58,451 nt of DNA, taken from positions 1 through 58,451 of the IMG/VR virus record IMGVR_UViG_3300035703_000103; one strand, 5' to 3'. The position numbers and the translations under genes were made by a program. The stretch comes from a virus (Duplodnaviria; Caudoviricetes). The notes beneath the pieces were generated by a model. That model was not told the origin of the DNA and ran no database searches. It was given only the letters and a program-made list of their open reading frames with translations. This document shows, in pieces, positions 1-18,170 of this stretch (position 1 is its first letter; the number at the start of each line of letters is the position of its first letter).

Positions 1-5
1 ACCAA

Positions 6-3000
6 ATGGCCGAGGCCATGATCACGCAGATGAAGGACAACCTGGTGTGGCTGCACAACCAGTGGCGTCCTGAACTGCGCGAGCGGTCCCGACTCTGGTA
101 TGTGGGTGGGAATCGAATCTCACACCGCATGGCTTCGCGGTTTAGGACCGAGCCCTGGCGTGTGGCCGCCGTGATTGCGGCGACCAGCCCTCAGAAGGAC
201 TGGTTCCAGAACGTCTCTTTGGCCGAGCGCATTCTGGAGGCTGTGGTCAACAACTCGCAGATGGTCTGGACGGCGCAGATGACCGAGACGGTCAACTCCC
301 GCGACTGGGGCGGCAAGGAGTCGCGCGATCTTGGGTTCACGCCGCGCAATGAAATCTCTCGCCTGCAGGGCAAGACCTTGCGTGATCTGTACGAACCTCA
401 GAATCCGCAGTCTCTTTTGGATATGGCGGTATGGGTTCGCGCTTGGGATGAGACGTACAACCCCCGCATGGCCCGGGTGATCTCGCCTGAAGGCAAGTTC
501 ATTGATGAGTTCGACTCGACCAAGGACGGGCGTCCAATCGGCCTGCGTTGGCAGAGTTTTGCCACCATTGCCAAGACGCTGGACATCCTGACTGCGCCTG
601 ATCGGGCGACAGTGTCTGCCATGATCGGCTCGAACCATAAGGTTCGCTCGTTCTACAACAACATCATCGCGCCGTTTGATGATGAGGACGTGACCATCGA
701 CACCCATGCCGTGGCCGCCGCTCTGATGCGTCCTCTGGGGTCGTCAGCCACCGAGGTGGCTCACAACTTTGGCACCAACGAAAAGGGGATGCCGGGACCG
801 AAGAACAGTGCCATCACGGGACTTTTCGGCACCTACCCGATCTACGCTGAAGCCTATCGCCGTGCGGCCCGCGAGGTTGGGGCGCTTCCCCGTGAGATGC
901 AATCCATCACTTGGGAAGCGGTGCGCGGCCTGTTCCGTCCAGAGCAGAAGAATGAGAGAATCAAGGGCGAGGCAGACCGCATTTGGCGCGAAGTCTCTGA
1001 GGGGGAACTCGATGTCAACGAAGCGCGGCAGCAAATCTCTGGCCTGGTTGGTGGCATCCAAGACCCCGCCTGGGTCAGATCCCCTGCTGGAAGTAATGAA
1101 GCAGCGCGGGATTCCTCTTACGCAGGAGGAGTACCTGAAGATGGCGTACCCGGAAGGGGTGCCCAACCCGGTGCCGCCAGAGGTGATGGCCGAGATGCCG
1201 GCGCAACTCCGGCAAGCCTGAGTCGCGGGCGACGAGTCACGCCCAGCCCTGACTCCGCAAACTTCAAGCGGTGGAGCGGTAACGCACCGCTGATCACCTC
1301 CGCAGCAGCGGTTGACCATGTCTTCAAGACGGGTCAGAAGGTGGTGCTAGAAGGTTTCCACGGCACCGGTCGAGGCGACCGTGTTGGCACCGTGTTCCAG
1401 CGCAAGCGCGCCACCTCCGGCCCGATGGCGTTCTTCACCAGTTCGCCCATGTTGGCCAGCTCCTACGCTCAGGGCAAGCCCGACACCAGCCGCGCACTGG
1501 AGGACAACCCGTTTGAGAGTTGGTTCAAGTTCAAAGGGAAGGGGATGCGAACGGCGGTCAACCTCGACCGCGCGTGGTACTTCCTTGATCAAGAGAGCAA
1601 GGCCAAGATCGCCAAGCGGATGCCTGACATTCGCACGGACGATGACGGCAACATCGTCTACGAAGAGGGCGGCGGCGGCCTTGGCAACTACGACTGGGAA
1701 CTGAAGCAAACCAAGTCGGCCTACCTTCGCGAGGGTAACCCGCTGAAGGCGGCCGTTGAATCTTGGTTGAGCAGCGGCGCCATCTACGGCGACGAGGGCC
1801 GTTTCCGCCAGGTGCTGCGCTTGGCCGGCTTCCCGACGGATGCGCTGGAGTACGACAACCCGCAGGAGACGTACCCGTTCGTCTACAAGGTCTATGTCTC
1901 CATGCTCAACCCGCTGGTGACCAGCGACATTCCGAAGGAAGTGGACGATGCTTTGCGCGCGGCGGCTGCAAAGGACCGCAGCAAGGCCAAGTCACAGTTC
2001 GGCGTGGACTCTTGGGACAAGAACACCCGCACGCTCAAGGAGTGGGTGGGCGAGTATCTGAACCCATCCAACGGGGACAACCGATACGTTTGGACGAGCA
2101 TCCCTGACAAGGTGACCGAGGTCTTCAAGAGCCTGGGTTATGACGGGATCATCGACTACTCGGGGAAGAACGGTTCCACCGAAGTCGCGCCGGTCTACAT
2201 CCCGTTTGAAGAGGGTCAGGTCAAGAGCGCCATAAGCAACAGCGGCGAGTTTGACCGCAGCAAGAAGGACATCCAGGCCAGCAGATCGCGTGAGCGCCTA
2301 CTGTCAATGCCTGCGGTGCCGGTGAGTCCGCTACCTGATGGTATGGCTCTTGGTGATCTTCGTGTCTTGGCTAGTGAGCGGTATAAGGCCGCCGCCAAAC
2401 TTGGCCCCGTCAAGATGATGGATGACCGCGCCGTGCTGCTGACATCGGTCGGGATGAAGAAGTCGCGCAGCCACAGCGCCGACAAGCGGGTGCTGGAATT
2501 GATGGGCTCAATTCGAGAGGTGCTTGGTGCAGCAGAGCCCGTGGCTTCGATTCCGCATCAGCAGGAGAATCCAGGCGACTCAATCCGCGCGTGGCACTAC
2601 TACGGCGCGAAGGTGGATATCGATGGCGAGGAGGCGTTTGCCAAGCTCGTTGTGCGCGAGTCGGTCAACGGCGAGATTTACTACGACACCGACCTGTCTG
2701 GCGTGGAAGATATCAGCGGTCGTGCTGGTGACGCTGCCCGATCCAAAACCGGGGCGGCAGCCGTTTCCGCTGACAAGAGAACTCTAGCCGATCTTCTGGG
2801 CTCAGGCAATCTTGGGAGTGAGGTTGAGTTGAGCCGCGGCCGCTCCGACATCGACCTATGGGGGCAGGCCGGAACCAAGTCGGCTGACTCACTACAGGCC
2901 CTCGCCGATTGGGGTGGGAACAGTATTCTTGGTGACCCCAAAACTGGCAAGCCTGTTGTTTGGTGGGCTTATCGCAGGGCCGGCAGCAAGTCGCGCCTTG

Positions 3001-6000
3001 ACCCAATGCCTTACCCCGACAACGGAATCTATGGCCTGATCGTCACGCCGCTTGGAGTGCAGGCCCGTTTGGACATGGATTCTCCGCAGTCGTGGATCAA
3101 CGAGGCCAATGACTCGGATGAGTATGTCCGCCCGGTGCCAGTCATCATTCGTGGATCGGAAGTGGTGACGGATGATCAACTATTCGACCTGACACAGTCC
3201 AACCCCGGCAAAACCAACGGTCAGATTGCCGCCTCACAAGACATCGCGATGGTGGAGTTGGAAAGCCTGGCTTCCAATCACAAGATCGTTCTCAACCCGG
3301 CTAATGTCATTGAGTTGCGCGGTCCATTACTTGCGCTGATCAACGACGCTGGCAACACCCTGCAGCGTTCTCCTACTGATTACGCCTGGGTGTTCAATGG
3401 GTACGACACCTTGAATGTTGATTCAACCGTGATTACGGAGGATGGGCCTGAGTTGCCGGATGTCAGCTTGAGCCGCGGGCGCGATTCCATGCCGCCCCGC
3501 TTGTACTTGGTCGGGCCGGAACTGGCTGACTCGGCGCAGGGCACGGAAGACATGCCGCGCAGCGCGCAGGATCAGGATGCGCCCCGCCGGACATTCGGCC
3601 TTCGCGGTAAGAGCACGTTCCCTTCGCGGGCTGAAGTGAACTCTATGTCCCGCGAGGAGTTGATCGACTTCCTGCAGGATATGGACCCCAACGGGGACTA
3701 TGCCGATCCTGATCCCGACCCGGATGTGCGCCTGTACCAGACCGCCAGGGGCTGGAACGTGGAGTACAACGAGTACGACGACCCGGGTGAATTCGACTCC
3801 TATGAGAAGGCGTATCGGGCCTACAACGAGGCCAGGTATGCGAATGCCGAGAACCCTCCGATGACGCTGGATCAGGCGCGGGATGCTGCGCTGACGATGC
3901 TGCAGGAGAGCGTGTGGCCGGAGGGCGGCGGCGAGGTGGTGCAGGCGCGGTTTGGAAGGCCGGACATCACGAAGTCCTCTGGCCGTACCACCAGCGCCCT
4001 TGATCTGATCGCCAAGCGCGACGAGATGGGGCGCCTGAAGTTCGGCCTGGGCAGCAAGGCTTACTCCATCGTGGCCGAGATTGCCGGCAATGTGCTGGAT
4101 CGGGTGCGGATGAAGCCCATCTCCGAAGACCTCGCTCGGGCCATGCTCAAGATGAAGGTCGCCATTGAGAAGGCGCAGGAGCGCACGGTGGATGTGGCCA
4201 AGTCCATGAGCGAGTTGGACCCGGCCGAGCGGCAGATGATCTCGGATGTGATCGAGCAGGAACTGACCGCAGGCGTGGTGCCCCCGACTCGGGTTCTGCA
4301 GATCGCGGCGACCATTCAGGGAATCATGTCCGAGCAGTCCAAGGAACTGATTGATTTGGGCATGCTGCGCCAGGAAGACGCCGACCGTTGGGACGGTCGC
4401 TACATCCCGCGCTTCTACGAGCAGAAACTGGGCGAAGAAGCATCGGCCTGGATGAAGGCCGTCAAGCAGTTGTTCACCCGCCCGCGCGCGATGATGGGCA
4501 TCAAGGGCAGCAACCTCAAGTCACGCGGGCTGTGGGAGACGATCCCGGCGGACGAGTTGGATGCTTGGCTGGATGAGGGTTGGGAAGTGCGCGACCCAGC
4601 CTATGACGAGGCCACCTCCACCGAGGTCCGTATCTGGCGCGACTACACACGCCCGGAGCGGGACAGCATGGGCGAGATCCGGGACTCTATGTTCCGATTC
4701 GTCATGGGCTACCAGAAAGCCCAGCGCGACATCGCCTTGGGCAAGATGTACCGGCACATCAACCAGACGATGTCCAGCAGCGCCGAGAAGGATGGATTCG
4801 TTCGGGTGCCGGACTCCAGCATCGACGGCGTGGACGTACCGTCCTACGGCGAGCTGGCCGGCAAGTGGGTTCCGCGCGAGGTGCTGGATCACCTGAGTGC
4901 CTTTGACGCCACGCAGCGCAACGCCCTGACCCGCTTCTACCAGAAGGCCCTGTCCTACTGGAAGGAGGGCAAGGTGGTGCTCAACCCGGTGAGCCACGCC
5001 AACAACATCTTGTCCAACTTGACGATGGCGCACTTCGCAGGCGTTTCATACTGGGACACGCCCAAGTACATGGCCGCGCTGCGGGATATGCACAAGGGCT
5101 CGCCCATGTTGGACGAGGCCAAGGACGCGGGCCTGTTCGTGGGCTCGTTCAACCAGGCCGAGATCGCCAAGGCCCTGCCCGAGCAGTTGAAGGTGCTGGC
5201 CGGCAAGACAGAGAGCAAGGCCGGCAAGGCATTCGACTCGGTCTTCACTTTCTTCACATACTTCCTTCGCAAGCCGATGAACGCGGCCTACGAGCTGGAG
5301 GATCAGTTCTTCCGCTACCTGCTGTACCGCGACGCCCGCACCCGCGGCATGGGGCCTGAGGACGCAGTGCGCCACTCGCAGCGGCACATCTTCACCTACG
5401 ACGATCTGCCGCAGGGTGCTCGCGTGGTGCGCGACACGGCGCTGCCGTTCTTCGCTTACACCTACAAGGTGATCCCGGTCCTGGCCAAGACGGCGCTGGA
5501 GTACCCGCATCGGTACGCAATGCCGGCCGCGATCCTGTACACGATCAATGCACTTGGCTTTGCGATGGCTGCTGGCGACGAGGACGACGGCTGGATGGAC
5601 ATCATCCGGCGCTACTCATCTGACGCCGACTTCCGCAAGAAGGTCAGCGACCTCGAGGGGCAGGAGCGCAAGGACTTGCCGCCGTGGATGCAGGGCGCGA
5701 GTGCTTCGCTTGGCACGCCTAAGGCGATCCGCCTGGGGCAGGATGACAAGACCGGGCTGCCGGTGTACCTGGATGTCAGCAAGATCTTCCCCGGCGGCGA
5801 CCTGTTGGACGTGACGGCCAACGCAGGCGGCCTGCCGTGGCTGCAGCCGCTCACGCCTTCAAGTCCTGTGCTCAACGCGGCCGCGGCTCTGTTCTTCAAC
5901 CGCGACCCGTTCTACGGCAAGGACCTGGTGGACAAGAACGACACGCCGGCAGAGGCTGCAAAGAAGCGCGCCGAGTGGGCCTGGAAGCAGTTCTCTCCGG

Positions 6001-6356
6001 CAATCACGATCTACAACTACCACTGGGACCGCGGCATGAACGTCCTGGCCAACGCCACCGGAACGGACATCCTGGGCTACACCGGGCGCGGCAAGGACGG
6101 CATTCCGGTGGATGCGATGTACGCGGCCATGCAGACCTTCGGCATCAAGGCGCGGCCCATCGACCTGGAGAAGTCAGCCGACATCAACGCCAACAAGGAG
6201 AAGTCCATCATCCGCTCCATTGAGGCAGAAATTTCGCAACTCAAGCGCCTGGAGGCCAAGGGCGCAATGACCTCGGAGAAGGCTCAAAAGCAGATCGACC
6301 TTGAGAACGAGAAGATCCAGCGAATCCGAGACAAGAAGTTGGAGTCAGTTGAATGA
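6..6356 (+). CDS. C-terminal 2116 aa of giant polyvalent (DarB/ddrB-like, probably virion-injected) protein; probably continues from ORF 53444..58451 across the circular junction
   Basis: Modules separated by LSRGR-like linkers. (1) A domain with SPQKDW..N / KVRSFYNNI / VTIDTHA / MQSITWEAVR motifs, HhH-glycosylase-like (tentative). (2) ADP-ribosyltransferase ART-PolyVal-like: FHGT..FFTSSP..YA..VYVSMLNPL..GYDGII..QVKSAISNSGEFD. (3) LPD3-like: WHYYGAKV.IDGE...KLVVRE..NG..YYD. (4) Helical C-terminal region typical of these proteins. Confidence 0.85.
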   Translation: MAEAMITQMKDNLVWLHNQWRPELRERSRLWYVGGNRISHRMASRFRTEPWRVAAVIAATSPQKDWFQNVSLAERILEAVVNNSQMVWTAQMTETVNSRDWGGKESRDLGFTPRNEISRLQGKTLRDLYEPQNPQSLLDMAVWVRAWDETYNPRMARVISPEGKFIDEFDSTKDGRPIGLRWQSFATIAKTLDILTAPDRATVSAMIGSNHKVRSFYNNIIAPFDDEDVTIDTHAVAAALMRPLGSSATEVAHNFGTNEKGMPGPKNSAITGLFGTYPIYAEAYRRAAREVGALPREMQSITWEAVRGLFRPEQKNERIKGEADRIWREVSEGELDVNEARQQISGLVGGIQDPAWVRSPAGSNEAARDSSYAGGVPEDGVPGRGAQPGAARGDGRDAGATPASLSRGRRVTPSPDSANFKRWSGNAPLITSAAAVDHVFKTGQKVVLEGFHGTGRGDRVGTVFQRKRATSGPMAFFTSSPMLASSYAQGKPDTSRALEDNPFESWFKFKGKGMRTAVNLDRAWYFLDQESKAKIAKRMPDIRTDDDGNIVYEEGGGGLGNYDWELKQTKSAYLREGNPLKAAVESWLSSGAIYGDEGRFRQVLRLAGFPTDALEYDNPQETYPFVYKVYVSMLNPLVTSDIPKEVDDALRAAAAKDRSKAKSQFGVDSWDKNTRTLKEWVGEYLNPSNGDNRYVWTSIPDKVTEVFKSLGYDGIIDYSGKNGSTEVAPVYIPFEEGQVKSAISNSGEFDRSKKDIQASRSRERLLSMPAVPVSPLPDGMALGDLRVLASERYKAAAKLGPVKMMDDRAVLLTSVGMKKSRSHSADKRVLELMGSIREVLGAAEPVASIPHQQENPGDSIRAWHYYGAKVDIDGEEAFAKLVVRESVNGEIYYDTDLSGVEDISGRAGDAARSKTGAAAVSADKRTLADLLGSGNLGSEVELSRGRSDIDLWGQAGTKSADSLQALADWGGNSILGDPKTGKPVVWWAYRRAGSKSRLDPMPYPDNGIYGLIVTPLGVQARLDMDSPQSWINEANDSDEYVRPVPVIIRGSEVVTDDQLFDLTQSNPGKTNGQIAASQDIAMVELESLASNHKIVLNPANVIELRGPLLALINDAGNTLQRSPTDYAWVFNGYDTLNVDSTVITEDGPELPDVSLSRGRDSMPPRLYLVGPELADSAQGTEDMPRSAQDQDAPRRTFGLRGKSTFPSRAEVNSMSREELIDFLQDMDPNGDYADPDPDPDVRLYQTARGWNVEYNEYDDPGEFDSYEKAYRAYNEARYANAENPPMTLDQARDAALTMLQESVWPEGGGEVVQARFGRPDITKSSGRTTSALDLIAKRDEMGRLKFGLGSKAYSIVAEIAGNVLDRVRMKPISEDLARAMLKMKVAIEKAQERTVDVAKSMSELDPAERQMISDVIEQELTAGVVPPTRVLQIAATIQGIMSEQSKELIDLGMLRQEDADRWDGRYIPRFYEQKLGEEASAWMKAVKQLFTRPRAMMGIKGSNLKSRGLWETIPADELDAWLDEGWEVRDPAYDEATSTEVRIWRDYTRPERDSMGEIRDSMFRFVMGYQKAQRDIALGKMYRHINQTMSSSAEKDGFVRVPDSSIDGVDVPSYGELAGKWVPREVLDHLSAFDATQRNALTRFYQKALSYWKEGKVVLNPVSHANNILSNLTMAHFAGVSYWDTPKYMAALRDMHKGSPMLDEAKDAGLFVGSFNQAEIAKALPEQLKVLAGKTESKAGKAFDSVFTFFTYFLRKPMNAAYELEDQFFRYLLYRDARTRGMGPEDAVRHSQRHIFTYDDLPQGARVVRDTALPFFAYTYKVIPVLAKTALEYPHRYAMPAAILYTINALGFAMAAGDEDDGWMDIIRRYSSDADFRKKVSDLEGQERKDLPPWMQGASASLGTPKAIRLGQDDKTGLPVYLDVSKIFPGGDLLDVTANAGGLPWLQPLTPSSPVLNAAAALFFNRDPFYGKDLVDKNDTPAEAAKKRAEWAWKQFSPAITIYNYHWDRGMNVLANATGTDILGYTGRGKDGIPVDAMYAAMQTFGIKARPIDLEKSADINANKEKSIIRSIEAEISQLKRLEAKGAMTSEKAQKQIDLENEKIQRIRDKKLESVE
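1012..1221 (+). CDS. Overprinted 69-aa protein nested in +1 frame of giant gene (MSTKRGSK...DPLLEVMKQRGIPLTQEEYLKMAYPEGVPNPVPPEVMAEMPAQLRQA)
   Basis: RBS-like GAGGGGG upstream of ATG 1012; globular-looking sequence; host frame here is G/A/R-rich linker with atypical A/T-ending codons. Confidence 0.7.
   Translation: MSTKRGSKSLAWLVASKTPPGSDPLLEVMKQRGIPLTQEEYLKMAYPEGVPNPVPPEVMAEMPAQLRQA
2711..2775 (-). ncRNA. Putative antisense small RNA with tRNA-Gln(UUG) anticodon stem-loop mimic
   Basis: Minus strand: outer stem UGUCAGCGG/CCGCUGAUA; inner CCCGG-UUUUGGA-UCGGG (5-bp stem, 7-nt loop; 2737-2753); begins about 6 nt after a -10 box. Confidence 0.55.
2781..2809 (-). promoter_or_regulatory. Antisense sigma70-like promoter inside giant gene
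   Basis: Minus strand TTGCCT (2809-2804), 17 bp spacer, TAGAGT (2786-2781). Confidence 0.55.
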
Positions 6357-6373
6357 ACAGAACCGGAATCCCC

Positions 6374-6416
6374 TGTCAATAGGGGGAATTGACACTTCCT
6401 GCAAAAACGCTATCAT
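6374..6416 (+). promoter_or_regulatory. sigma70 promoter with overlapping inverted repeat (possible operator)
   Basis: TTGACA 6389-6394, 16 bp spacer, TATCAT 6411-6416; inverted repeat TGTCAAT-N7-ATTGACA 6374-6394. Confidence 0.65.
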
Positions 6417-6446
6417 TTGCAGTGTCGATAGCGTTTCTTCTCAACG

Positions 6447-6486
6447 GCCCTGCGGAATTACAAGTTCTGGCAGGGCTTTTGTCTTT
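6447..6486 (+). terminator. Intrinsic terminator/attenuator hairpin
   Basis: GCCCTGC-GGAATT-ACA-AGTTCT-G-GCAGGGC followed by TTTTGTCTTT. Confidence 0.65.
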
Positions 6487-6499
6487 CAGGAGGTGAACC

Positions 6500-6733
6500 A
6501 TGAAGTTCAGCGAAGCAATCGACCATCTTCGCCTGGGTCATTTGGTCCAGCACCAGGATTGGGAGCCCACGAGCAAACTGTGGTGGGATGACCAGATGCA
6601 GATCCTGCGCGTGTCCACGCGGCGCGGCGACTTCATCTTTCGTATCGAGTCGGCCGACCTTATGAGCGACGGCTGGCGCCTGTGCGCGCCCGAGCACGAT
6701 GTGCTGCTCCACGAAGAGGCCGCCTGGGTGTGA
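6500..6733 (+). CDS. DUF2829/Tad2-like small protein (possible anti-defence nucleotide sponge)
   Basis: MKFSEAI..LR.G..V....W N-terminus and ADLMSDGW C-terminal motif match the recalled family pattern; strong RBS AGGAGG. Confidence 0.55.
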   Translation: MKFSEAIDHLRLGHLVQHQDWEPTSKLWWDDQMQILRVSTRRGDFIFRIESADLMSDGWRLCAPEHDVLLHEEAAWV

Positions 6734-6977
6734 CCTAGTGCCTTTCGCCGGATGTTCATCGGACTGATGATGGCGCTGTGGGCGTGGACTCGATCAAAGG
6801 TTCCTCTGCGTTGATAGACAGACCCGCCACGGGTCTGAAGATCGGCACGCCCACGCCTCCTGCTGAAGCGGACAACCCGCTGAACATCCCGGCCAGGATC
6901 AAAGCCGCAGAAGACTTGCGCCTCTACAACGAGAGGCGGGGGTACGTTCCGGGGCAGGGGAACGTCATTGGTGTGGC

Positions 6978-7976
6978 TTAGAGCTTCTTCGCCAGGTCTT
7001 CGGCCTTGGGGTTGAAGTAGGTCAACGCCTGGGTGGTGCTTGACCATCCGAACATCTTGCACAACTCCAGCACCCCGAGCTTCCCGGCATTCACGATCTT
7101 GGTGGCCGCAGTGTGGCGGCTATCGTGGAAAGTGAAACCCTCAAGCCCTGCCCGCATCCGCGCACGCCGAAACAGCGTATCAACTGATCGGACGGGCACA
7201 GCGAACACCTCCACGGTGTCGCGCCCCTTCATGCGCTCAATGAGTCCTTGAGCCGCCTCTGAAAGCGGAACCTCTCGCGGTTTCGTCTTGGTCTGCCGAA
7301 GCCGCACGAATGACGGCGCGACATCGGCCCACTTCAGGCCAAACACCTCCCCACACCTCATGCCCGTTTCCAAGGCCAAGAGGAACCCAACGGCTACCGC
7401 TTGGCTTGCCGTGGTCACGGGCGCATCCTCTGCGTACCCAAGCTGCGCCACCACTGCCGCCACCTCCGCATCGGTGATGACGCGATCCCGGTGGTCGGGT
7501 TGCCTGGGCTTTCTGATGTCGTTCACGGCATTGAAGTCGGCCCACTTCCATTCCCTGCGGGCGTGCTCAAAGACGGCTGACATGACGCCGATTTCCCGCA
7601 AGACCGTGTTGGCGGCTTTTCTCTGTGACAGGCGCGAATCCCGCCAATCGGCCAGATGCTCGGGGCGTATCTCAGCCAACGGCTTGTCTAGCGGCAGGGC
7701 CTTGTGGTCGGCAGACTCAAGCCACGAATTGATCCGCACGGTTTCCCAACGGTGTCCGCGCTTGGTTGGCGTCACCTCGTCCCGGTAACGCTCAAGCACC
7801 TGGCGCAGCGTCTTGACATGGGAGCCTTGGCCAGAGGAAAGGGCTAGCAGTTCCGTGCGGGTGCGAACGATCCAGGCTTCGGCTTCGACCTTGGACTGGA
7901 ACGTGCCGCTCAGACGCTGGCCCTTGACCATCATCTGTACGCGCCACACCTTGCCGTCTTTGCGGATGTAGGCCAT
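6978..7976 (-). CDS. int: Tyrosine recombinase (phage integrase)
   Basis: ETGMRCGE (R), FHDSRH (HxxR), GW, C-terminal TYFN tyrosine. Confidence 0.95.
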   Translation of the reverse strand: MAYIRKDGKVWRVQMMVKGQRLSGTFQSKVEAEAWIVRTRTELLALSSGQGSHVKTLRQVLERYRDEVTPTKRGHRWETVRINSWLESADHKALPLDKPLAEIRPEHLADWRDSRLSQRKAANTVLREIGVMSAVFEHARREWKWADFNAVNDIRKPRQPDHRDRVITDAEVAAVVAQLGYAEDAPVTTASQAVAVGFLLALETGMRCGEVFGLKWADVAPSFVRLRQTKTKPREVPLSEAAQGLIERMKGRDTVEVFAVPVRSVDTLFRRARMRAGLEGFTFHDSRHTAATKIVNAGKLGVLELCKMFGWSSTTQALTYFNPKAEDLAKKL

Positions 7977-8114
7977 TACTAAATCCCATGCAATTTCTTA
8001 GTAACCCGATTGAGCAATCAGGTGCATGGGTGGCACTTTACAACGTCAGGAATCGGCTAAGTGCTTGATTTTGTGCGGTGGAGTGCTGTGATTGCATCCA
8101 GTAGCACTGTGCGG

Positions 8115-9647: not shown

Positions 9648-9800
9648 TCATCGCGCATTCAGAATCTCCCTGACCAACTGGCGCACCTCTTCAGACACCG
9701 CCCAGCCAAGATCGTCCGGGTCTAGCAGTCGCAACAAGAAGCGGCGCAACTCAACATTTCGGGCGGCCAGTGCTTCGGCGGTGGACTTGTAGTCGGTCAT
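9648..9800 (-). CDS. Hypothetical protein
   Basis: LLRLLDPDDLGWAVS motif; ATGA coupling to MTase stop. Confidence 0.55.
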   Translation of the reverse strand: MTDYKSTAEALAARNVELRRFLLRLLDPDDLGWAVSEEVRQLVREILNAR

Positions 9801-11545
9801 GCCAACTGCTCCTTGATCCTCTTGCCGATCCAATGGACCACGGGAACTGCCCAGCTGTTTCCGAGGGCCTTGTACATAGGTCCGTCTGGCGGCGGCGTCT
9901 TGCCGCGCCACTCCACTTGCATCAGATAGTCGTCAGGGAAACCCTGCAATCTCGCGCACTCGACGGGCGTCAGGCGGCGCACTTGCATGGAAACCGGCAC
10001 GCAGAAGTCCAGCTCGTTCGCGTTGCCTGCGGGTCTGTTGAGGCCACCGCCATTGGCCGCGAGAGTCCCCGCGACGGGTGACATATCGGTCGGCCGCATC
10101 ACCACGGCGTGCTCTGCGTTGGATCGCGCAAGGGTGTGGCACGGATCGCCGGGATTCCTGTTCTGCTTGTTGACCGGCGCAGTGATGTTGAAGAAGTCGT
10201 AGGTGACGGGCTGCATCACGATGGGCAGATCGCACCCGTTGTCCTGCTTGGCGTGCTGAGTCGGGGCGACTGTGATTTCCTTGACGCGGCCGTCTTGGTC
10301 GTGGCGCTCGTAGCACACGGGCTGCATGACTGCCGTCGTGGTGCTGTTCTCCACGCCTGATGGAATGCGTGAGCGCAGACTGCTGCTGACCTCGGTGTAC
10401 GAAGCCACCTGTGCTGTGCCGTCAGTACCGTGGAGGGTCACGCCAACTGGGACGGCCACCGCCCCAACACCCATGCCATCACGGCCTCCGTTGGGGGTGA
10501 GCAGCGCATTGGCCGTGCCGTCCTGCCGAGCCTCTAGATCGCGCCCATCTCCACGGCCACGGATCGCCAGGATGTAGGGCTGCATCACCGCCTGCCCCTG
10601 CGCCTGGTCGAGCGTGTGCGCCACTTCATGCGCTACACCGTGGCCGTTGGCGCTGGTGTTGGCCGTACGGACGGCATAAGCAACTGCCGCAGTCGCGTTC
10701 TCATTGGCCCCTATGGCATGGCACAGATCGGTGCTGCTGATGGGGTCCTGGGTGGGGTGGAAGGCAACTGGCTGCGCCACGGCAAGCATTCCATCGGCAC
10801 GACCCGCAACTCGCATCGTTGGGGCGATGTTTTCAGTTGCATCCCCACCATCATCATTTCTACTGAAAGCCACCGGCACCAACGGCGTACCGCGCCCACT
10901 TCCATCTTCAGAGGCATCAAATCCTTCGCCGCGCAGGGTATGGGCTACATAGGTCGCTTCGTTGGGATCAAGCCTTCCCGTTGCCGTATGCGATGCCGTC
11001 AGTGCTCGAGCGCACTCCCCCCCCCCCTCCGATTCCGAGGGGCACGGGGACGAAGTTGTCGGAGTCCTCTCGGTGACTGCTGTTAGCGCGAGCTCTAAGG
11101 CTTTTGGCAATGTCTTGCCCCTCTTGCTGGCCCGACGAAGGATTCCCGCGCAGGCTTGAGCCGACAGGAAAAAGCGGTCCGGTAAAGAGCCTGTCTCCAA
11201 GACTTCGGACAACGTCGGCTTCGGTGTCGAAAAGCACGGTGCGGGGATCGAGCCGATGTTCATGCCCGACAGCAACGACAAAAACGCGCCGTCTTCGCTG
11301 CGGGACAAAGCCCTGAGCGTCGAGGACACGCCAAGCGAGTCGCCGTCTGGGTCCATCAACCAGACCCGCGTTTGTCCATCCGCTCCTCGAAACGAGGGGG
11401 GCCTCACATCCCGCCAGGCCGGCGAGGAAGCATCCAAATGCGTTGTCCTTGGTGCTGAGAACTCCGGGGACGTTCTCCCAGAAGACGATTGCGGGGTCAT
11501 CGCCTCGGGCGCGTCGAACATCGTCAATTGCATTTGCGATCTCAC
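9797..11545 (-). CDS. C5 cytosine DNA methyltransferase C-terminal part (variable region, motifs IX/X) fused to alternative-frame beta-like peptide
   Basis: RRLTPVECARLQGFPD and YKALGNSWAVPVV; N-terminal part LSEVLETG..FFLSAQACAGILRRA..RGK.LP. Confidence 0.8.
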   Translation of the reverse strand: MRSQMQLTMFDAPEAMTPQSSSGRTSPEFSAPRTTHLDASSPAWRDVRPPSFRGADGQTRVWLMDPDGDSLGVSSTLRALSRSEDGAFLSLLSGMNIGSIPAPCFSTPKPTLSEVLETGSLPDRFFLSAQACAGILRRASKRGKTLPKALELALTAVTERTPTTSSPCPSESEGGGECARALTASHTATGRLDPNEATYVAHTLRGEGFDASEDGSGRGTPLVPVAFSRNDDGGDATENIAPTMRVAGRADGMLAVAQPVAFHPTQDPISSTDLCHAIGANENATAAVAYAVRTANTSANGHGVAHEVAHTLDQAQGQAVMQPYILAIRGRGDGRDLEARQDGTANALLTPNGGRDGMGVGAVAVPVGVTLHGTDGTAQVASYTEVSSSLRSRIPSGVENSTTTAVMQPVCYERHDQDGRVKEITVAPTQHAKQDNGCDLPIVMQPVTYDFFNITAPVNKQNRNPGDPCHTLARSNAEHAVVMRPTDMSPVAGTLAANGGGLNRPAGNANELDFCVPVSMQVRRLTPVECARLQGFPDDYLMQVEWRGKTPPPDGPMYKALGNSWAVPVVHWIGKRIKEQLA

Positions 11546-16397: not shown

Positions 16398-16736
16398 CTA
16401 CGGCTTGGCTCGAGGTGCGTCGCTTTCGTCTCGCCAGTCGATGTCGCCGAAATCCATGACGCTGTCTTCGGCCGGGCAGTCCATGCTCACGCCCTTCGGG
16501 CTTTCCCAGACATAGCAGATGCGGTAGTCCACATAGATCGTGCCGCTCATCGGGATACGAACCACGCGCAGCGTTGCGTCTGGCATTTCGTAGACCCGCT
16601 CAATAGGGCCTCGCTTGAACATAGCCGCGACCTTGGCGCGCTCCTTTTCCCGGCGCTCCTTGGTCCGCCTTTCCTTGTCTGACTCGCCTGTGCAGCCGGC
16701 CAGCAGGGCCAGAGCGAGGATGGCTGCGCCTTTCAC
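16398..16736 (-). CDS. Lipoprotein co-transcribed with repressor
   Basis: Signal/lipobox ILALALLAGC; GTGA coupling to cI. Confidence 0.7.
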   Translation of the reverse strand: MKGAAILALALLAGCTGESDKERRTKERREKERAKVAAMFKRGPIERVYEMPDATLRVVRIPMSGTIYVDYRICYVWESPKGVSMDCPAEDSVMDFGDIDWRDESDAPRAKP

Positions 16737-17470
16737 AGACCGCCCGATCCAGCCTTGTCGCGCACCCTGCCAATGATGCCGATCTGCTCGATCGCCACCT
16801 CTGGCGGTATTTCCTCATCGCGGGGCAAATGGTCTGGGTTGTCGGAGCGCAAGGTCAGGGTTCCATCTAGGCGGCGGTAGACGCGCTTGATGCGCAGCTC
16901 ATCCCCATATCTTATGGCGTAGACCTTGCCGTTGATGATGTTGACTTCCTGTAGATTGACCAGCACTGAGTCACCGTCGCAAAGCAGTGGGGCCATGCTG
17001 TCGCCGTGAACCTTGAAACGCTTGGCGGCGTTGGGATTGATGCCCATGCGCTGGAACCAGTCTAGGCGGTAGGTCGCGGGGGTGGAGTCGGCCAGCTCGT
17101 TAATGAGTGCGGTGCGCCCTGGGCCCGCGCTGAAACTCACCTCGTGCTCGGGGATGCGGACATATTCGTCGCCAGGGTCTTCCTCATCGTGCAGCACCCG
17201 GACCGGGCGCCCTGTGGCAATGACGGTGGAAGCCGCGTTCTTCGCAACGATTGCCAGTCGTGGGCTGATTTCCTCAAGCGGCACCCCAAACCCACGGGCG
17301 TAGGCGGCGGCCGCCTCCAGGCTCAATGGCCGGCGGCCGTGGATGTGTTGGTTGACCATTGACGCCCCGCCCGGAACGCCGTGCTCACGGGCAAACCGCG
17401 CCTGGTTGACGCCCACGAACCGCTGGGCTAGGCGCTCCAACTCCTCCTCGGAGCTCCAGATTGATTTCAT
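16733..17470 (-). CDS. cI: CI-like repressor (HTH + S24 peptidase)
   Basis: VHGDSMAP..GDSVLV..IKRV; start MKSIW at 17470. Confidence 0.92.
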   Translation of the reverse strand: MKSIWSSEEELERLAQRFVGVNQARFAREHGVPGGASMVNQHIHGRRPLSLEAAAAYARGFGVPLEEISPRLAIVAKNAASTVIATGRPVRVLHDEEDPGDEYVRIPEHEVSFSAGPGRTALINELADSTPATYRLDWFQRMGINPNAAKRFKVHGDSMAPLLCDGDSVLVNLQEVNIINGKVYAIRYGDELRIKRVYRRLDGTLTLRSDNPDHLPRDEEIPPEVAIEQIGIIGRVRDKAGSGGL

Positions 17471-17495
17471 AGGGTAATTCTTGCGCGAAAGATGT

Positions 17496-17535
17496 GGAGC
17501 GATGCTTGACAAGCAAAAAGTTGCTCCGCTACAGT
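17496..17535 (+). promoter_or_regulatory. PR promoter and operators
   Basis: TTGACA 17506-17511, TACAGT 17530-17535; imperfect palindromes GGAGC-GAT-GCTTG and GTTGC-TCC-GCTAC. Confidence 0.75.
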
Positions 17536-17542
17536 AGTGGAC

Positions 17543-17812
17543 ATGAACAAGATCATCATTCGCGCCAGTCAGGTCGTCGGCGGACAGGCCACGCTGGCCG
17601 GCGCTGTTGGCGTGAGCCCGTCTGCCCTGAATCAGTGGGTAATGGGCAGGCGCCCCGTCCCGCCCGAGCGATGCCCGGCCATTGAGCGCGCCACCCGGGG
17701 GATCGTTCCGGTCGAAGAGATCCGATCTGACATCACTTGGATTCGTGTGCGTGACCGCAAGTGGCCGCACCCGGAGGGAAGGCCCTGCATTGATGTGGTG
17801 GTGGATGCCTGA
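17543..17812 (+). CDS. cro: Cro/YdaS-like regulator
   Basis: GGQATLA..GVS...NQW..G.RPVP.ERCPAIERATRG.V; divergent from cI. Confidence 0.9.
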   Translation: MNKIIIRASQVVGGQATLAGAVGVSPSALNQWVMGRRPVPPERCPAIERATRGIVPVEEIRSDITWIRVRDRKWPHPEGRPCIDVVVDA

Positions 17813-17915
17813 GTGCATTTCAGCCCCGCAACTCACGCGCCATCTCCTCCCACTCCCAGGCCGCGTTGTCCATACAGCGCCTGACGACCCAAGCCAGTTT
17901 CTGAGTCGCCCAAAC

Positions 17916-18170
17916 ATGATCCTCGATCCGCTCCATCCGCTTTCCTCTCGTGGGCGCTCAGACGGCACCCTGCAGGTTGAACTCCGAGGGATGTGCCCTC
18001 GGCTGACGGTCGATGTGCTTGATGCCGTGGCTTCTGCCCGTGGCCTCAACCGCACCGACCTCGTCAACGAGCTGCTCTCCAAGTGGGCAGAGCAGCAGTT
18101 GCGAGAAGCAAGTCTCATCGCAAGGGTCACGCGGGGCAATCCCGAGGTCGCGGACGCATTCGGAGTCTGA
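17916..18170 (+). CDS. Small regulator in CII position (ribbon-helix-helix-like)
   Basis: ELRG.CP...DVLDAVA.ARG..RT.LV. Confidence 0.6.
   Translation: MILDPLHPLSSRGRSDGTLQVELRGMCPRLTVDVLDAVASARGLNRTDLVNELLSKWAEQQLREASLIARVTRGNPEVADAFGV

What the first reader, a model, noticed from the sequence alone, without database searches (positions are those of the whole stretch)
2711..2809. Antisense promoter and ~65-nt RNA with a tRNA-Gln(UUG) anticodon arm immediately after the LPD3-like nuclease domain
On the minus strand, TTGCCT-17 bp-TAGAGT is followed about 6 nt later by a 9-bp closing stem (UGUCAGCGG/CCGCUGAUA). This encloses CCCGG-UUUUGGA-UCGGG, which has canonical anticodon-arm geometry (5-bp stem, 7-nt loop, U33, anticodon UUG, purine 37). 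There is no D/T arm or CCA, so it is not a tRNA gene. It lies at the 3' end of a domain resembling LPD3, proposed to belong to the barnase/EndoU/colicin/RelE RNase fold. Inference: an RNA antitoxin or decoy (type III TA-like) for an anticodon nuclease, which predicts tRNA-Gln as the target.
Basis: partly seen in the sequence, partly recalled or inferred. Interest (0 to 1): 0.9.

Follow-up and report, generated by a model that had tools for sequence, protein, structure and literature searches.

The report
Antisense small-RNA gene inside phage polyvalent-protein gene
Inside the gene for a giant injected phage protein, the stretch that codes for a floppy linker after the LPD3 domain also carries, on the opposite strand, a conserved promoter and a roughly 70-base hairpin RNA that most likely switches the giant gene down, but the idea that it mimics a glutamine tRNA is not supported.

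Summary
Minus strand: -35 TTGCCT 2804-2809, 17 bp, -10 TAGAGT 2781-2786, closing stem 2767-2775/2711-2719, inner hairpin 2737-2753.

The region is not intergenic. It is codons 902-935 of a 2116-aa polyvalent-protein ORF (6..6356, +) in a temperate-phage contig, and it encodes a predicted disordered linker after LPD3.

On the window alone the hairpin is not unusual for this Ala/Gly-rich coding sequence (synonymous-recoding null). The comparative evidence from 14 homologous loci is strong:
- TTG-N3, an exact 17-nt spacer, then a -10-like hexamer in 14/14 loci (TAnnnT in 11/14).
- A four-helix rod with compensatory changes, some of which change amino acids.
- An invariant apical UUUG.
- Synonymous-codon identity of 0.68 in the linker against 0.40 in the LPD3 core.
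- Rare codons (Lys AAA, Leu CTA/TTA, Ile ATA) fixed where they build the loop and the -10.

G.U pairs and the promoter both point to the minus strand.

Best reading: a new cis-antisense small RNA, comparable to lambda OOP or IS10 RNA-OUT, that down-regulates the polyvalent-protein mRNA.

The tRNA-Gln decoy / type III antitoxin reading is not supported. The "32/38" positions covary as a base pair, giving a pentaloop. There are no repeats. LPD3 shows no nuclease fold or homology.

No RNA-seq data were available, so expression is unproven.

The parts
6..6356 (+). Polyvalent-protein ORF (2116 aa here; probably the C-terminal part of a protein of about 4000 aa) that contains the whole element
   Evidence: Pfam: DUF7178 aa 186-308, ART-PolyVal 611-749, LPD3 794-893. 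A 97%-identical 4189-aa representative, P0014.
2385..2684 (+). LPD3 domain coding region (aa 794-893)
   Evidence: Pfam PF18798, E 2.1e-11. AF2 model has pLDDT > 90 over the core.
2709..2810 (+). Codons 902-935: linker/tail after LPD3 (DISGRAGDAARSKTGAAAVSADKRTLADLLGSGN) that overlaps the RNA gene
   Evidence: aa 904-924 have pLDDT about 50 (disordered), followed by a short helix TLADLLG. Synonymous-codon identity is 0.68 here against 0.40 in the core.
2804..2809 (-). -35 hexamer TTGCCT
   Evidence: TTG is at this aligned place in 14 of 14 loci (TTGAC in 7, TTGCC in 7), always 17 nt from the -10.
2781..2786 (-). -10 hexamer TAGAGT, built from Thr ACT + rare Leu CTA
   Evidence: TAnnnT in 11 of 14 loci. 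CTA is 7 of 158 Leu codons in this ORF and 1 of 79 in L009.
2773..2775 (-). Predicted transcription start (G2774), at the first base of the closing helix
   Evidence: Inference from the 6-nt (12 of 14 loci) or 7-nt (2 of 14 loci) distance between the -10 and the helix. No transcript data.
2768..2774 (-). Helix 1, 5' arm (GUCAGCG)
   Evidence: RNAalifold pairs 11-17/69-75 of A4. Six of the 8 tested pairs of this helix show changes on both sides.
2712..2718 (-). Helix 1, 3' arm (CGCUGAU)
2758..2761 (-). Helix 2, 5' arm
   Evidence: A4 columns 24-27 paired with 60-63.
2724..2727 (-). Helix 2, 3' arm
2754..2756 (-). Helix 3, 5' arm
   Evidence: A4 columns 29-31 paired with 53-55; 13-14 of 14 loci paired.
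2732..2734 (-). Helix 3, 3' arm
2748..2752 (-). Apical helix 4, 5' arm
   Evidence: A4 columns 33-37. 16 G.U cells, so this helix forms on the minus strand only.
2738..2742 (-). Apical helix 4, 3' arm
2743..2747 (-). Apical pentaloop UUUGG. UUUG is invariant and is the complement of C + Lys914 AAA
   Evidence: UUUG in 14 of 14 loci. AAA is 7 of 113 Lys codons in this ORF. In L010 the same letters sit in another codon register (CCA AAG).
2703..2711 (-). Pyrimidine/U-rich tail after the closing helix (AUAUCUUCC). Possible termination point
   Evidence: The tail is UUUUUUCU in L013 and L016 and UUUGCAUUUUGU in L010. Weak in the G+C-rich members. Termination is inferred.

Best explanation
The segment has two functions.

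Plus strand. It encodes a disordered linker between the LPD3 domain and the next module of a giant, probably virion-delivered, polyvalent protein of a temperate phage.

Minus strand. It is a small-RNA gene with these parts:
- a sigma-70-type promoter (-35 at 2804-2809, -10 at 2781-2786);
- a start at about G2774;
- a rod of four helices about 64 nt long (2774-2711), capped by a UUUGG pentaloop;
- a pyrimidine/U-rich tail.
The RNA would be about 70 nt.

Proposed mechanism (inferred). The RNA is fully complementary to the polyvalent-protein mRNA. Its invariant loop fits the YUNR U-turn motif that speeds loop-loop contact in antisense systems. It therefore most likely acts as a cis-antisense repressor: the loop kisses the complementary CCAAA loop in the mRNA, the duplex extends, and the mRNA is then cleaved (RNase III type) or ribosomes are blocked. 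This would hold down expression of the ART/LPD3-bearing protein, for example from leaky transcription in lysogens.

Shown: the conservation of promoter, structure and loop, and the nucleotide-level constraint.

Inferred: that the RNA is made, where it ends, and what it does.
For: (1) Promoter.
- TTG plus an exact 17-nt spacer plus a -10-like hexamer sit at the same aligned place in 14 of 14 loci.
- TAnnnT holds in 11 of 14, including TTGACA-17-TATGCT (L012) and TTGACA-17-TATACT (L010).
- Indels occur inside the RNA in L003/L004, L013/L016, L015 and L014, but never between the two hexamers.
- The loose pattern occurs only 7 times on both strands of the window.

(2) Codon choice.
- The 'TA' of the -10 comes from CTA, TTA or ATA codons. 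The final T comes from Thr, Ser or Asn codons, which all start with A.
- CTA is 7 of 158 Leu codons in the window ORF. In L009 it is 1 of 79, and that one is at this site.
- The loop Lys is AAA in 13 of 14 loci, although AAA is 7 of 113 Lys codons in the window ORF.

(3) Structure.
- 12-sequence alignment: 96.2% of 236 cells paired, against 27-49% for slid controls. Nine pairs change on both sides. Covariation score 0.508 against 0.255 for shuffles (0 of 500 reach it).
- 14-sequence RNAalifold: 19 pairs, 11 with compensatory change.
- Some compensations change amino acids: Ser AGC/Ala GCT, Gly GGC/Ala GCC, Ser AGT/Thr ACT, Ala GCC/Gly GGC.
- Position-specific recoding null: 13-19 of 17-19 consensus pairs are kept, against null means of 8-14. 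P <= 0.002 in 13 of 14 loci.

(4) Synonymous constraint.
- Identical-codon fraction is 445/1104 = 0.40 over the LPD3 core and 210/310 = 0.68 over the linker.
- Among deep lineages only it is 0.38 against 0.66. None of 65 core blocks of equal length exceeds 0.46.

(5) Strand.
- 44 cells are G.U on the minus strand, against 5 that would be G.U on the plus strand, out of 266 cells.
- The minus-strand consensus energy is -23.67 kcal/mol against -18.35 for the plus strand.

(6) The protein does not need this sequence. AF2 gives pLDDT of about 50 for aa 904-924.

(7) The element persists without an intact domain. In L017 only an 87-codon remnant of the LPD3 ORF remains, but promoter and RNA are intact (18 of 19 pairs).

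(8) Context. The phage is temperate: integrase at 6978-7976 and a CI-like repressor at 16733-18139.

(9) YUNR loops as rate enhancers of antisense pairing: a passage of PMC4485353.
Against: - No transcript evidence. No RNA run was listed, which is reported only as something tried.
- The window's own hexamers match only 8 of 12 consensus positions and fall below the scan's threshold.
- Three of 14 loci lack TAnnnT: L011 TTTGCT, L003 AAGAGT, L004 CAGGGT.
- The U tract is weak in the G+C-rich members, including the window, so the 3' end and length are uncertain.
- The window's MFE is ordinary given its protein sequence.
- The plus strand can form most of the same rod (17 pairs, 8 with compensatory change), so an mRNA structure is not excluded.
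- The G.U count is biased, because the structure was derived on the minus strand.
- In one freshwater run, short contigs share only 2713-2772. The 3' flank consensus of two of them (2 reads, agreement 0.68) shows no obvious -10.
- The 14 loci represent about 10 independent lineages, not 14.
- A target in the middle of a 6-kb or longer ORF is unusual for translational control.
Confidence: 0.6

Rival explanations
1. Plus-strand reading. The conserved hairpin and the fixed rare codons (AAA, CTA/TTA/ATA, GAA) act in the polyvalent-protein mRNA itself. They form a translational pause or RNA-processing site at the LPD3/next-module boundary, which would aid co-translational folding of a giant multidomain protein. 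There is no antisense RNA.
For: - The rod also folds on the plus strand: RNAalifold gives 17 pairs, 8 with compensatory change. The window's plus-strand fold is -44.2 kcal/mol over 111 nt.
- The element sits exactly at a domain boundary in a disordered linker.
- The fixed codons are all rare A/T-ending codons in these G+C-rich genes.
Against: - It does not explain TTG at an exact 17-nt spacing from TAnnnT in 14 of 14 loci, nor the constant 6-7 nt from the hexamer to the helix.
- The apical helix needs 16 G.U cells that would be A.C mismatches on the plus strand. Overall the count is 44 against 5.
- The minus-strand consensus is more stable and has the larger covariation term, -3.57 against -1.25.
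- The element is intact in L017, where the ORF is an 87-codon remnant.
Confidence: 0.12
2. The small RNA is a protein-binding antitoxin or decoy (type III TA-like) that presents a tRNA-Gln(UUG) anticodon-arm mimic to an LPD3 anticodon nuclease.
For: - The 7-nt window N-U-U-U-G-K-N is present in 14 of 14 loci, with 'U33' and 'UUG' invariant and a purine at '37' in 11 of 14.
- The RNA always travels with this LPD3 subfamily, whatever module follows.
- The LPD3 core has conserved His/Arg/Tyr/Glu positions. Its model topology is helices followed by a 4-stranded antiparallel sheet. From recall, that topology does not exclude a BECR-like fold.
Against: - '32/38' can pair in 11 of 14 loci and covaries (AU 4, UA 3, GC 3, GU 1), so the conserved loop is 5 nt.
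- The 5-bp + 7-nt geometry holds in only 8 of 14 loci.
- U replaces the purine at '37' in 3 of 14 loci.
- There are no tandem repeats and only one copy.
- ARAGORN and Rfam find nothing.
- No nuclease fold or homology was found for LPD3. The passages of Iyer 2017 that I read give LPD3 no function.
- The co-occurrence with LPD3 is trivial, because the RNA is embedded in LPD3's own tail codons.
Confidence: 0.08
3. A small RNA is made as in the best explanation, but it acts in trans rather than on its own mRNA. Possible targets are host transcripts or the homologous LPD3 module of a competing or superinfecting phage. Alternatively it works as a protein sponge (for example of an RNA chaperone or a defence protein).
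For: - The promoter and RNA evidence is the same as for the best explanation.
- The element is retained in L017 in a 192-kb MAG contig beside an HsdR-like gene, although the LPD3 ORF is reduced to a remnant. There a cis target no longer exists in full.
- The RNA core is the only part of 2400-3100 shared with several short freshwater contigs.
Against: No candidate trans target was tested or found. Full complementarity to its own mRNA makes a cis action the default. L017 may simply be a recent remnant.
Confidence: 0.1
4. A DNA-level or neutral explanation. The inverted repeat is a DNA site (protein binding, recombination at module borders), or a quasi-palindrome kept symmetrical by template-switch repair. 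The promoter-like hexamers are by-products of the conserved peptide HTLxxLLxG(N/K).
For: - Watson-Crick pairs dominate (200 of 266 cells).
- Module exchange happens close by. The L002 match ends about 40 nt downstream of the element, and the L003/L004 matches end within it.
- The -35 TTG largely follows from the conserved Asn/Lys codon.
Against: - 44 G.U cells are tolerated on one strand, against 5 on the other.
- The rare-codon 'TA' of the -10 and the AAA loop codon are not required by the peptide.
- Breakpoints between relatives lie beside the repeat, not at it.
- The structure has persisted down to 43-46% protein identity with many independent compensations.
Confidence: 0.06

Closest known systems
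Phage lambda OOP RNA (antisense to the 3' end of cII)
   Same: - A short RNA of a temperate phage made from its own promoter on the strand opposite a protein-coding gene.
- It overlaps the end of a coding unit whose product is harmful when over-made.
[quoted passage not shown] I saw this only as titles of Krinke & Wulff 1987/1990 in the reference list of PMC5869508, plus that paper's title and abstract. Its length and other details are recalled.
   Different: - No sequence or Rfam relation.
- Here the RNA lies wholly inside one giant ORF, at an internal domain boundary, not at a gene end or intergenic junction.
- It is co-inherited with a protein-domain module across many different polyvalent proteins.
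- Its action is untested.
IS10 RNA-OUT and plasmid/TA antisense RNAs with YUNR loops (CopA, Sok, FinP types)
   Same: - A promoter inside the target gene on the opposite strand.
- An RNA that is essentially one long imperfect hairpin starting at +1.
- A recognition loop fitting YUNR (UUUG/UUGG), which is described as a general enhancer of antisense pairing (passage of PMC4485353). The shapes of RNA-OUT, CopA, Sok and FinP are recalled, not checked here.
   Different: - Those RNAs overlap 5' UTRs, ribosome-binding sites or leader regions. This one overlaps the middle of a long ORF.
- The target is not a transposase, a replication protein or a small toxic peptide.
- No homology.
Type III toxin-antitoxin RNA antitoxins (ToxI type) and tRNA anticodon-arm mimics
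   Same: A small structured RNA physically linked to a protein module of a conflict system. The loop contains U-UUG-R.
   Different: - No tandem repeats and only a single copy.
- It is antisense to the coding sequence and inside it, not upstream on the same strand (the ToxIN layout is recalled).
- The loop is closed to 5 nt by a covarying pair.
- The partner domain is not shown to be an RNase.
Polyvalent proteins / LPD3 (Iyer et al. 2017, PMC5512222)
   Same: The host gene is a typical phage-type polyvalent protein (DUF7178, ART-PolyVal, LPD3), with mosaic module order among relatives.
   Different: In the text of that paper the word 'antisense' occurs 0 times. An RNA gene embedded in an LPD linker is not described in the passages I read. 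Its supplementary files could not be seen.

Membership tests
Cis-encoded antisense small RNA (OOP / RNA-OUT / CopA / Sok kind) | Own promoter on the strand opposite the target gene, within or next to it | tested here: met
   TTG-N3, 17 nt, -10-like hexamer conserved in 14 of 14 loci, with TAnnnT in 11 of 14. Supported by rare-codon fixation. This is sequence evidence only. Promoter activity was not measured.
Cis-encoded antisense small RNA (OOP / RNA-OUT / CopA / Sok kind) | Stable stem-loop RNA with a recognition loop (often YUNR) | tested here: met
   Four-helix rod with covariation. Loop UUUGG/UUUGU contains YUNR in 14 of 14 loci. The motif definition comes from PMC4485353.
Cis-encoded antisense small RNA (OOP / RNA-OUT / CopA / Sok kind) | Defined 3' end (intrinsic terminator) | tested here: inconclusive
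   The closing helix is followed by a U/C-rich run. It is strong in L013, L016 and L010 and weak in the window (AUAUCUUCC). The terminator scan does not list it.
Cis-encoded antisense small RNA (OOP / RNA-OUT / CopA / Sok kind) | The transcript exists and lowers expression of the overlapping gene | not testable with these tools
   No RNA run was listed for this sequence. All relatives come from metagenomes or MAGs.
tRNA / tRNA-like anticodon-arm mimic | tRNA-like fold recognisable by tRNA finders or Rfam | tested here: not met
   ARAGORN finds 0 genes in the window. Rfam has no match at the element in the window or in 10 homologous loci.
tRNA / tRNA-like anticodon-arm mimic | 5-bp stem with an open 7-nt loop, U33 and purine 37, conserved among relatives | tested here: not met
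   5 bp + 7 nt in 8 of 14 loci. '32/38' can pair in 11 of 14 and covaries. U33 in 14 of 14. UUG in 14 of 14. R37 in 11 of 14.
Type III toxin-antitoxin (ToxIN-like) | Antitoxin RNA made of tandem direct repeats that are processed by the toxin | tested here: not met
   No tandem repeat in 2000-3600. The covariance model finds one copy in the window.
Type III toxin-antitoxin (ToxIN-like) | The partner protein is an endoribonuclease | tested here: inconclusive
   The LPD3 model is confident (pLDDT 84, pTM 0.79). There is no PDB fold hit at E <= 0.001 and the top weak hits are NTF2/cystatin-like. The PDB profile search gave nothing relevant. Activity was not tested.
Type I toxin-antitoxin | The antisense RNA controls a small hydrophobic toxic peptide | tested here: not met
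   The overlapped gene is a multidomain protein of 2116 aa or more.
Any curated Rfam family | Match at or near the gathering score | tested here: not met
   no match at the element at E <= 1.

The most novel reading that the evidence does not exclude
LPD3 and its embedded antisense RNA form one mobile, self-contained cassette that moves between polyvalent proteins. It consists of a harmful effector domain whose own disordered linker has been shaped into the gene for its neutralising RNA.

The RNA would silence or neutralise the domain in the producing or lysogenic cell. It could do so by antisense action, by binding the domain, or both. The domain would then be active only after delivery as protein into a new host.

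This would be a new layout of toxin-antitoxin logic: an antitoxin RNA gene encoded antisense inside the toxin's linker. It would also be the first regulatory RNA tied to polyvalent proteins.
Probability: 0.17. Interest if true: 0.85.

Novelty: new variant of a known kind. Interest (0 to 1): 0.66.

Why it matters
Polyvalent proteins are giant, mosaic effector proteins that phages and conjugative elements deliver into new hosts. How their expression is kept harmless in the producing cell is unknown. In the text of the founding survey (PMC5512222) the word 'antisense' does not occur.

A conserved small-RNA gene written into the linker of one of their domains would have three consequences:
- It would give a first handle on that control.
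- It would give a clean natural example of a protein linker whose sequence is dictated by an overlapping RNA gene and promoter. Rare codons form the -10, and a Lys codon forms the loop.
- It would add an RNA family that is absent from Rfam.

It also gives a directly testable prediction, because synonymous changes should abolish the promoter or the loop without touching the protein.

If the RNA also neutralises LPD3, it would point to the still unknown activity of that domain.

Tried and rejected
- tRNA or known RNA family. ARAGORN found 0 genes. Rfam at E <= 1 found nothing at the element in the window (1-8000) or in 10 homologous loci.
- Cultured phages and plasmids. tblastn with aa 766-1098 found no match in either collection. 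blastn with the 116-nt element found no match in either.
- More family members.
  - An IUPAC pattern from the RNA core in viral contigs gave 5 stretches. Only one (L034, the L006 contig) is a member and the other four are unrelated.
  - Model R1 over 26 sources (163 kb) found only the 14 loci it was built from, plus a truncated copy of one of them.
  - R1 over 151 genomes found the known G001 copy plus two 27-bit hits. On inspection both are unrelated hairpins.
  - A PF18798 search of 400 genomes found 5 with a match. Those more distant LPD3 tails lack the motif.
- Expression. No RNA holder was listed, so expression is untested.
- Reads laid from four freshwater DNA runs gave only short contigs. 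Parts without cover say nothing.
- Single-sequence folding statistics as evidence. Rejected, because synonymous recoding folds as well and a 7-bp helix is common (the script crashed at a stop codon after 7 of 14 loci and was replaced by the position-specific test).
- Type III-like repeats: none.
- Supplementary files of Iyer et al. 2017, which hold the LPD3 alignment and notes, could not be seen and might state a fold prediction for LPD3.
- The Pfam comment text for PF18798 was not shown by the tool.


Full report
1. WHAT IS AT THE COORDINATES

- TTGCCT at 2804-2809, 17 bp, then TAGAGT at 2781-2786.
- Six bases later, UGUCAGCGG (2767-2775) pairs with CCGCUGAUA (2711-2719).
- This encloses CCCGG / UUUUGGA / UCGGG (2737-2753).

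The element does not lie after a gene. It is codons 902-935 of a 2116-aa open reading frame, 6..6356 on the plus strand.

Pfam finds three domains in that protein: DUF7178 (aa 186-308), ART-PolyVal (611-749) and LPD3 (794-893). It is therefore a phage-type polyvalent protein.

The window is an IMG/VR virus record estimated 76% complete. It carries an integrase (6978-7976, minus), a CI-like repressor (16733-18139, minus), Bet/Exo recombination genes, replication genes, terminase, portal, major head and tail genes. It is a temperate tailed phage.

The open frame at the right end (53444-58450) ends in sequence that, in the 95%-identical relative L002, runs on into the start of the left-end frame. 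About 55 residues in between are missing from the window. A 97%-identical representative is 4189 aa long. The real protein is therefore probably about 4000 aa.

2. IS IT MORE THAN CHANCE IN THE WINDOW ALONE?

Only weakly.
- Dinucleotide shuffles give z -2.97 for 76 nt and z -3.36 for the 72-nt predicted RNA.
- This is Ala/Gly/Ser/Arg-rich coding sequence. Recoding it with synonymous codons drawn from the gene's own usage gives equally stable folds (z +0.55 plus strand, -0.17 minus strand).
- A perfect 7-bp long-range helix appears in 20% of recodings (that script stopped after 7 loci).
- The hexamers match 8 of 12 consensus positions and are not reported by the consensus scan.

On this sequence alone the finding could not be told from chance.

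3. RELATIVES

Sources of related sequence:
- Peptide-pattern scans and tblastn brought in related LPD3-plus-tail loci from viral contigs (L002, L003, L004, L006), metagenome contigs (L009, L010, L011) and MAGs of Proteobacteria (L012-L017). With the window that makes 14 loci, about 10 independent lineages, down to 43-46% protein identity.
- The exhaustive protein search found only 210 cluster representatives at E <= 0.001 among 1.84 billion proteins. By a motif test, 17 of the 150 I examined carry this tail.
- Nothing similar is in the cultured-phage or plasmid collections.

The tail peptide is conserved: E-x-(I/V)-x-G-R-x-G-D-A-x3-K-x-x-A-A-x-V-S-x-D-x-H-T-L-x-x-L-L-x-(G/V)-(N/K). The modules that follow it differ between relatives.

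4. A CONSERVED NUCLEIC-ACID STRUCTURE

Folding each locus showed a long-range closing helix at the same place but with different letters:
- UCAGCGG/CCGCUGA (window, L002, L006, L009)
- UCAGUGG/CCACUGA (L011, L012)
- UCGGCGG/CCGCCGA (L017)
- UCGCCGGA/UCCGGCGA (L013)
- UCGCCAG/CUGGCGA (L016)
- a 12-bp helix of other sequence in L003/L004

Several of these exchanges change the amino acids on both sides (Ser/Ala, Gly/Ala, Ser/Thr, Ala/Gly). They match the third base of one codon to the first base of its partner codon.

On the minus-strand alignment of 12 loci, RNAalifold predicts 20 pairs in four helices. Counting gives:
- 96.2% of 236 cells paired, against 27-49% when partners are slid by 1-3 columns;
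- nine pairs with changes on both sides;
- a covariation score of 0.508 against 0.255 for shuffles (0 of 500 reach it).

With all 14 loci there are 19 pairs, 11 of them with compensatory change.

Its outermost closing pair and first inner pair are not conserved.

A position-specific null keeps each protein and recodes it synonymously. It retains on average 8-14 of the consensus pairs. The real sequences keep 13-19 of 17-19, with P <= 0.002 in 13 of 14 loci and P = 0.016 in L011. The structure was derived from these same sequences, so this test is not fully independent.

5. NUCLEOTIDE-LEVEL CONSTRAINT

Take pairs of sequences that have the same amino acid in a column and count how often they use the identical codon:
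- LPD3 core: 445/1104 = 0.40.
- Linker: 210/310 = 0.68.
- Five deep lineages only: 0.38 against 0.66.
- None of 65 core blocks of the same length exceeds 0.46.

The constrained stretch is about 35-45 codons. That matches promoter plus RNA.

Rare codons are fixed:
- The invariant Lys is AAA in 13 of 14 loci, though AAA is 7 of 113 Lys codons in the window's gene and 8 of 54 in L009.
- The Leu/Ile of 'T-L' is CTA, TTA or ATA. CTA is 7 of 158 Leu codons in the window. In L009 it is 1 of 79, and that one is at this site.
- In L010 the loop letters CCAAAG are kept in a different codon register (Pro CCA, Lys AAG).

AlphaFold2 models the LPD3 core with pLDDT above 90. It gives aa 904-924 a pLDDT of about 50, followed by a short helix (TLADLLG). 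The protein gives no evident reason for the conservation of the linker.

6. THE PROMOTER

Anchoring all loci on the Lys codon shows, on the minus strand, TTG-N3, exactly 17 nt, then a hexamer, in 14 of 14 loci:

| -35 | -10 | Locus |
|---|---|---|
| TTGCCT | TAGAGT | window |
| TTGCCC | TAGAGT | L002, L009, L017 |
| TTGCCG | TAAGGT | L006 |
| TTGACA | TATGCT | L012 |
| TTGCCG | TATAGT | L015 |
| TTGACG | TATGTT | L013 |
| TTGACG | TAAGGT | L016 |
| TTGACA | TATACT | L010 |
| TTGCCG | TAGACT | L014 |
| TTGACA | TTTGCT | L011 (its ORF is broken) |
| TTGACA | AAGAGT | L003 |
| TTGACG | CAGGGT | L004 |

- TAnnnT holds in 11 of 14.
- The 'TA' is the end of the rare CTA/TTA/ATA codon. The last T is the complement of the first base of Thr, Ser or Asn codons.
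- Indels occur inside the RNA in several lineages but never between the hexamers.
- The closing helix starts 6 nt (12 loci) or 7 nt (2 loci) after the hexamer. That puts the expected start at G2774, the first paired base.
- After the helix comes a pyrimidine/U-rich run. It is AUAUCUUCC in the window, UUUUUUCU in L013/L016 and UUUGCAUUUUGU in L010.
- The loose pattern TTGNNN-17-TANNNT occurs only 7 times on both strands of the whole window.

7. WHICH STRAND?

- Of 266 cells in the 19 consensus pairs, 200 are Watson-Crick. 44 are G.U on the minus strand (A.C on the plus strand). 5 are the reverse.
- The apical helix has 16 G.U cells and forms only on the minus strand.
- The minus-strand consensus is more stable (-23.67 against -18.35 kcal/mol) and has the larger covariation term (-3.57 against -1.25).
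- The G.U count is biased towards the strand on which the structure was derived. The promoter points the same way.

Anticodon-arm geometry.
- The 7-nt window N-U-U-U-G-K-N is always present (U33 and UUG in 14 of 14 loci; purine '37' in 11 of 14).
- The flanking '32/38' positions can pair in 11 of 14 loci and covary (AU 4, UA 3, GC 3, GU 1). The conserved loop is therefore the pentaloop UUUGG/UUUGU.
- A 5-bp stem with a 7-nt loop holds in 8 of 14 loci.

Other tests.
- There are no tandem repeats and no second copy.
- ARAGORN and Rfam find nothing.

LPD3.
- The passages of Iyer et al. 2017 that I read say the functions of LPD1-40 remain elusive.
- They name LPD3 once, in a Helicobacter phage context. 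They make the BECR RNase prediction for PBECR domains. Their supplements could not be seen.
- The LPD3 model (pLDDT 84, pTM 0.79) has helices followed by a four-stranded antiparallel sheet.
- It finds no PDB fold at E <= 0.001. The best weak hits are NTF2/cystatin-like, with TM-scores of 0.37 or less.
- A profile search of PDB sequences gives nothing relevant.

The decoy/antitoxin model is not excluded, but none of its specific features is supported.

9. MECHANISM

What is shown:
- a promoter-like signal with fixed geometry;
- a covarying rod hairpin that begins where transcription should start;
- an invariant loop;
- a U/C-rich tail;
- all of this under nucleotide-level selection, inside a disordered protein linker.

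What I infer: an RNA of about 70 nt is made from the minus strand.

The RNA is perfectly complementary to the polyvalent-protein mRNA. Its loop fits the YUNR motif, described as a general enhancer of loop-loop antisense pairing (passage of PMC4485353). The most economical function is cis-antisense repression of the giant gene by duplex formation, followed by cleavage or a ribosome block.

Comparable cases:
- IS10 RNA-OUT (recalled).

A temperate phage would plausibly need such a brake on an ART/LPD3-bearing effector in lysogens. That step is speculation.

My estimates:
- about 0.8 that a real antisense RNA gene is present;
- about 0.6 for the full statement, including cis-antisense action.

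Rivals:
- an mRNA pause or processing structure (0.12);
- a trans-acting RNA (0.10);
- a DNA-level or neutral palindrome (0.06).

10. CAVEATS

- No RNA data exist for this sequence.
- All relatives are metagenomic.
- Three loci have a poor -10.
- Termination in G+C-rich members is uncertain.
- Short freshwater contigs that share only 2713-2772 have other flanks. The 3' flank consensus of two of them (2 reads, agreement 0.68) shows no obvious -10.
- The family is small.

11. NOVELTY

Antisense small RNAs of phages, plasmids and transposons are a known kind. This one differs in four ways:
- it matches no Rfam family;
- it sits in the interior of a giant ORF at a domain border;
- its promoter, stem and loop are written in the codons of a disordered linker;
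- it travels with a protein-domain module among mosaic polyvalent proteins.

In the polyvalent-protein survey the word 'antisense' occurs 0 times in the main text. My three literature searches listed no paper on an RNA gene inside a polyvalent-protein gene. They were not aimed at that question, so this is weak evidence that it is not in print.

I rate it a new variant of a known kind, with interest 0.66.

Noticed in passing
window aa 405, 942, 1155 of ORF 6..6356 (nt about 1218, 2829, 3468): The motif [L]SRGR (ASLSRGRR, VELSRGRS, VSLSRGRD) recurs three times at apparent module borders. It also recurs three times in the 97%-identical P0014. The window and L002 are about 95% identical up to ELSRGRS and then carry different modules. 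The motif may mark module junctions or processing sites.
   Followed up: partly
window 53444-58450 (+) and 3-6356 (+): The open frame at the right end of the contig and the one at the left end are two parts of one giant gene. L002 shows the same sequence running continuously, with about 55 residues that the window lacks between its ends. The joined frames give 3787 codons without a stop. A 4189-aa representative (P0014) exists.
   Followed up: partly
window 6389-6416 (+): A near-consensus sigma-70-like site (TTGACA, 16 nt, TATCAT; 11 of 12 positions). It lies just after the stop of the polyvalent gene, in the gap before the integrase gene (6978-7976, minus).
   Followed up: no
L014 / L019 / L024 (one MAG contig, G005:C277): One 2422-aa frame holds three LPD3 domains. 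Only the first has this tail. That tail is lengthened by an insertion containing a second, similar hairpin-like segment (loop GAUUGG) upstream of the promoter-proximal one.
   Followed up: partly
L017:1516-1779 and flanks: In a 192-kb MAG contig only an 87-codon remnant of the LPD3 end remains, yet promoter and RNA are intact. It abuts an HsdR-like type I restriction gene (1776-3194). A P-loop (zeta-toxin-like) gene lies upstream on the other strand.
   Followed up: partly
window 2713-2772, runs X3: In one freshwater metagenome run, three short contigs match only the RNA core (80-98% alike) and have unlike flanks on both sides. This suggests further variants of the element in other contexts. 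The sequences were not retrievable.
   Followed up: partly
L015:532-960 (+): Sub-threshold Rfam match to the cspA thermoregulator (47.4 bits; gathering score 78) upstream of the LPD3 region in a Burkholderiales MAG contig.
   Followed up: no
window 9797-11545 (-): A 582-aa protein with DNA methyltransferase matches in its C-terminal half, in the early region of the phage. The N-terminal half has no PHROG match at 1e-5.
   Followed up: no
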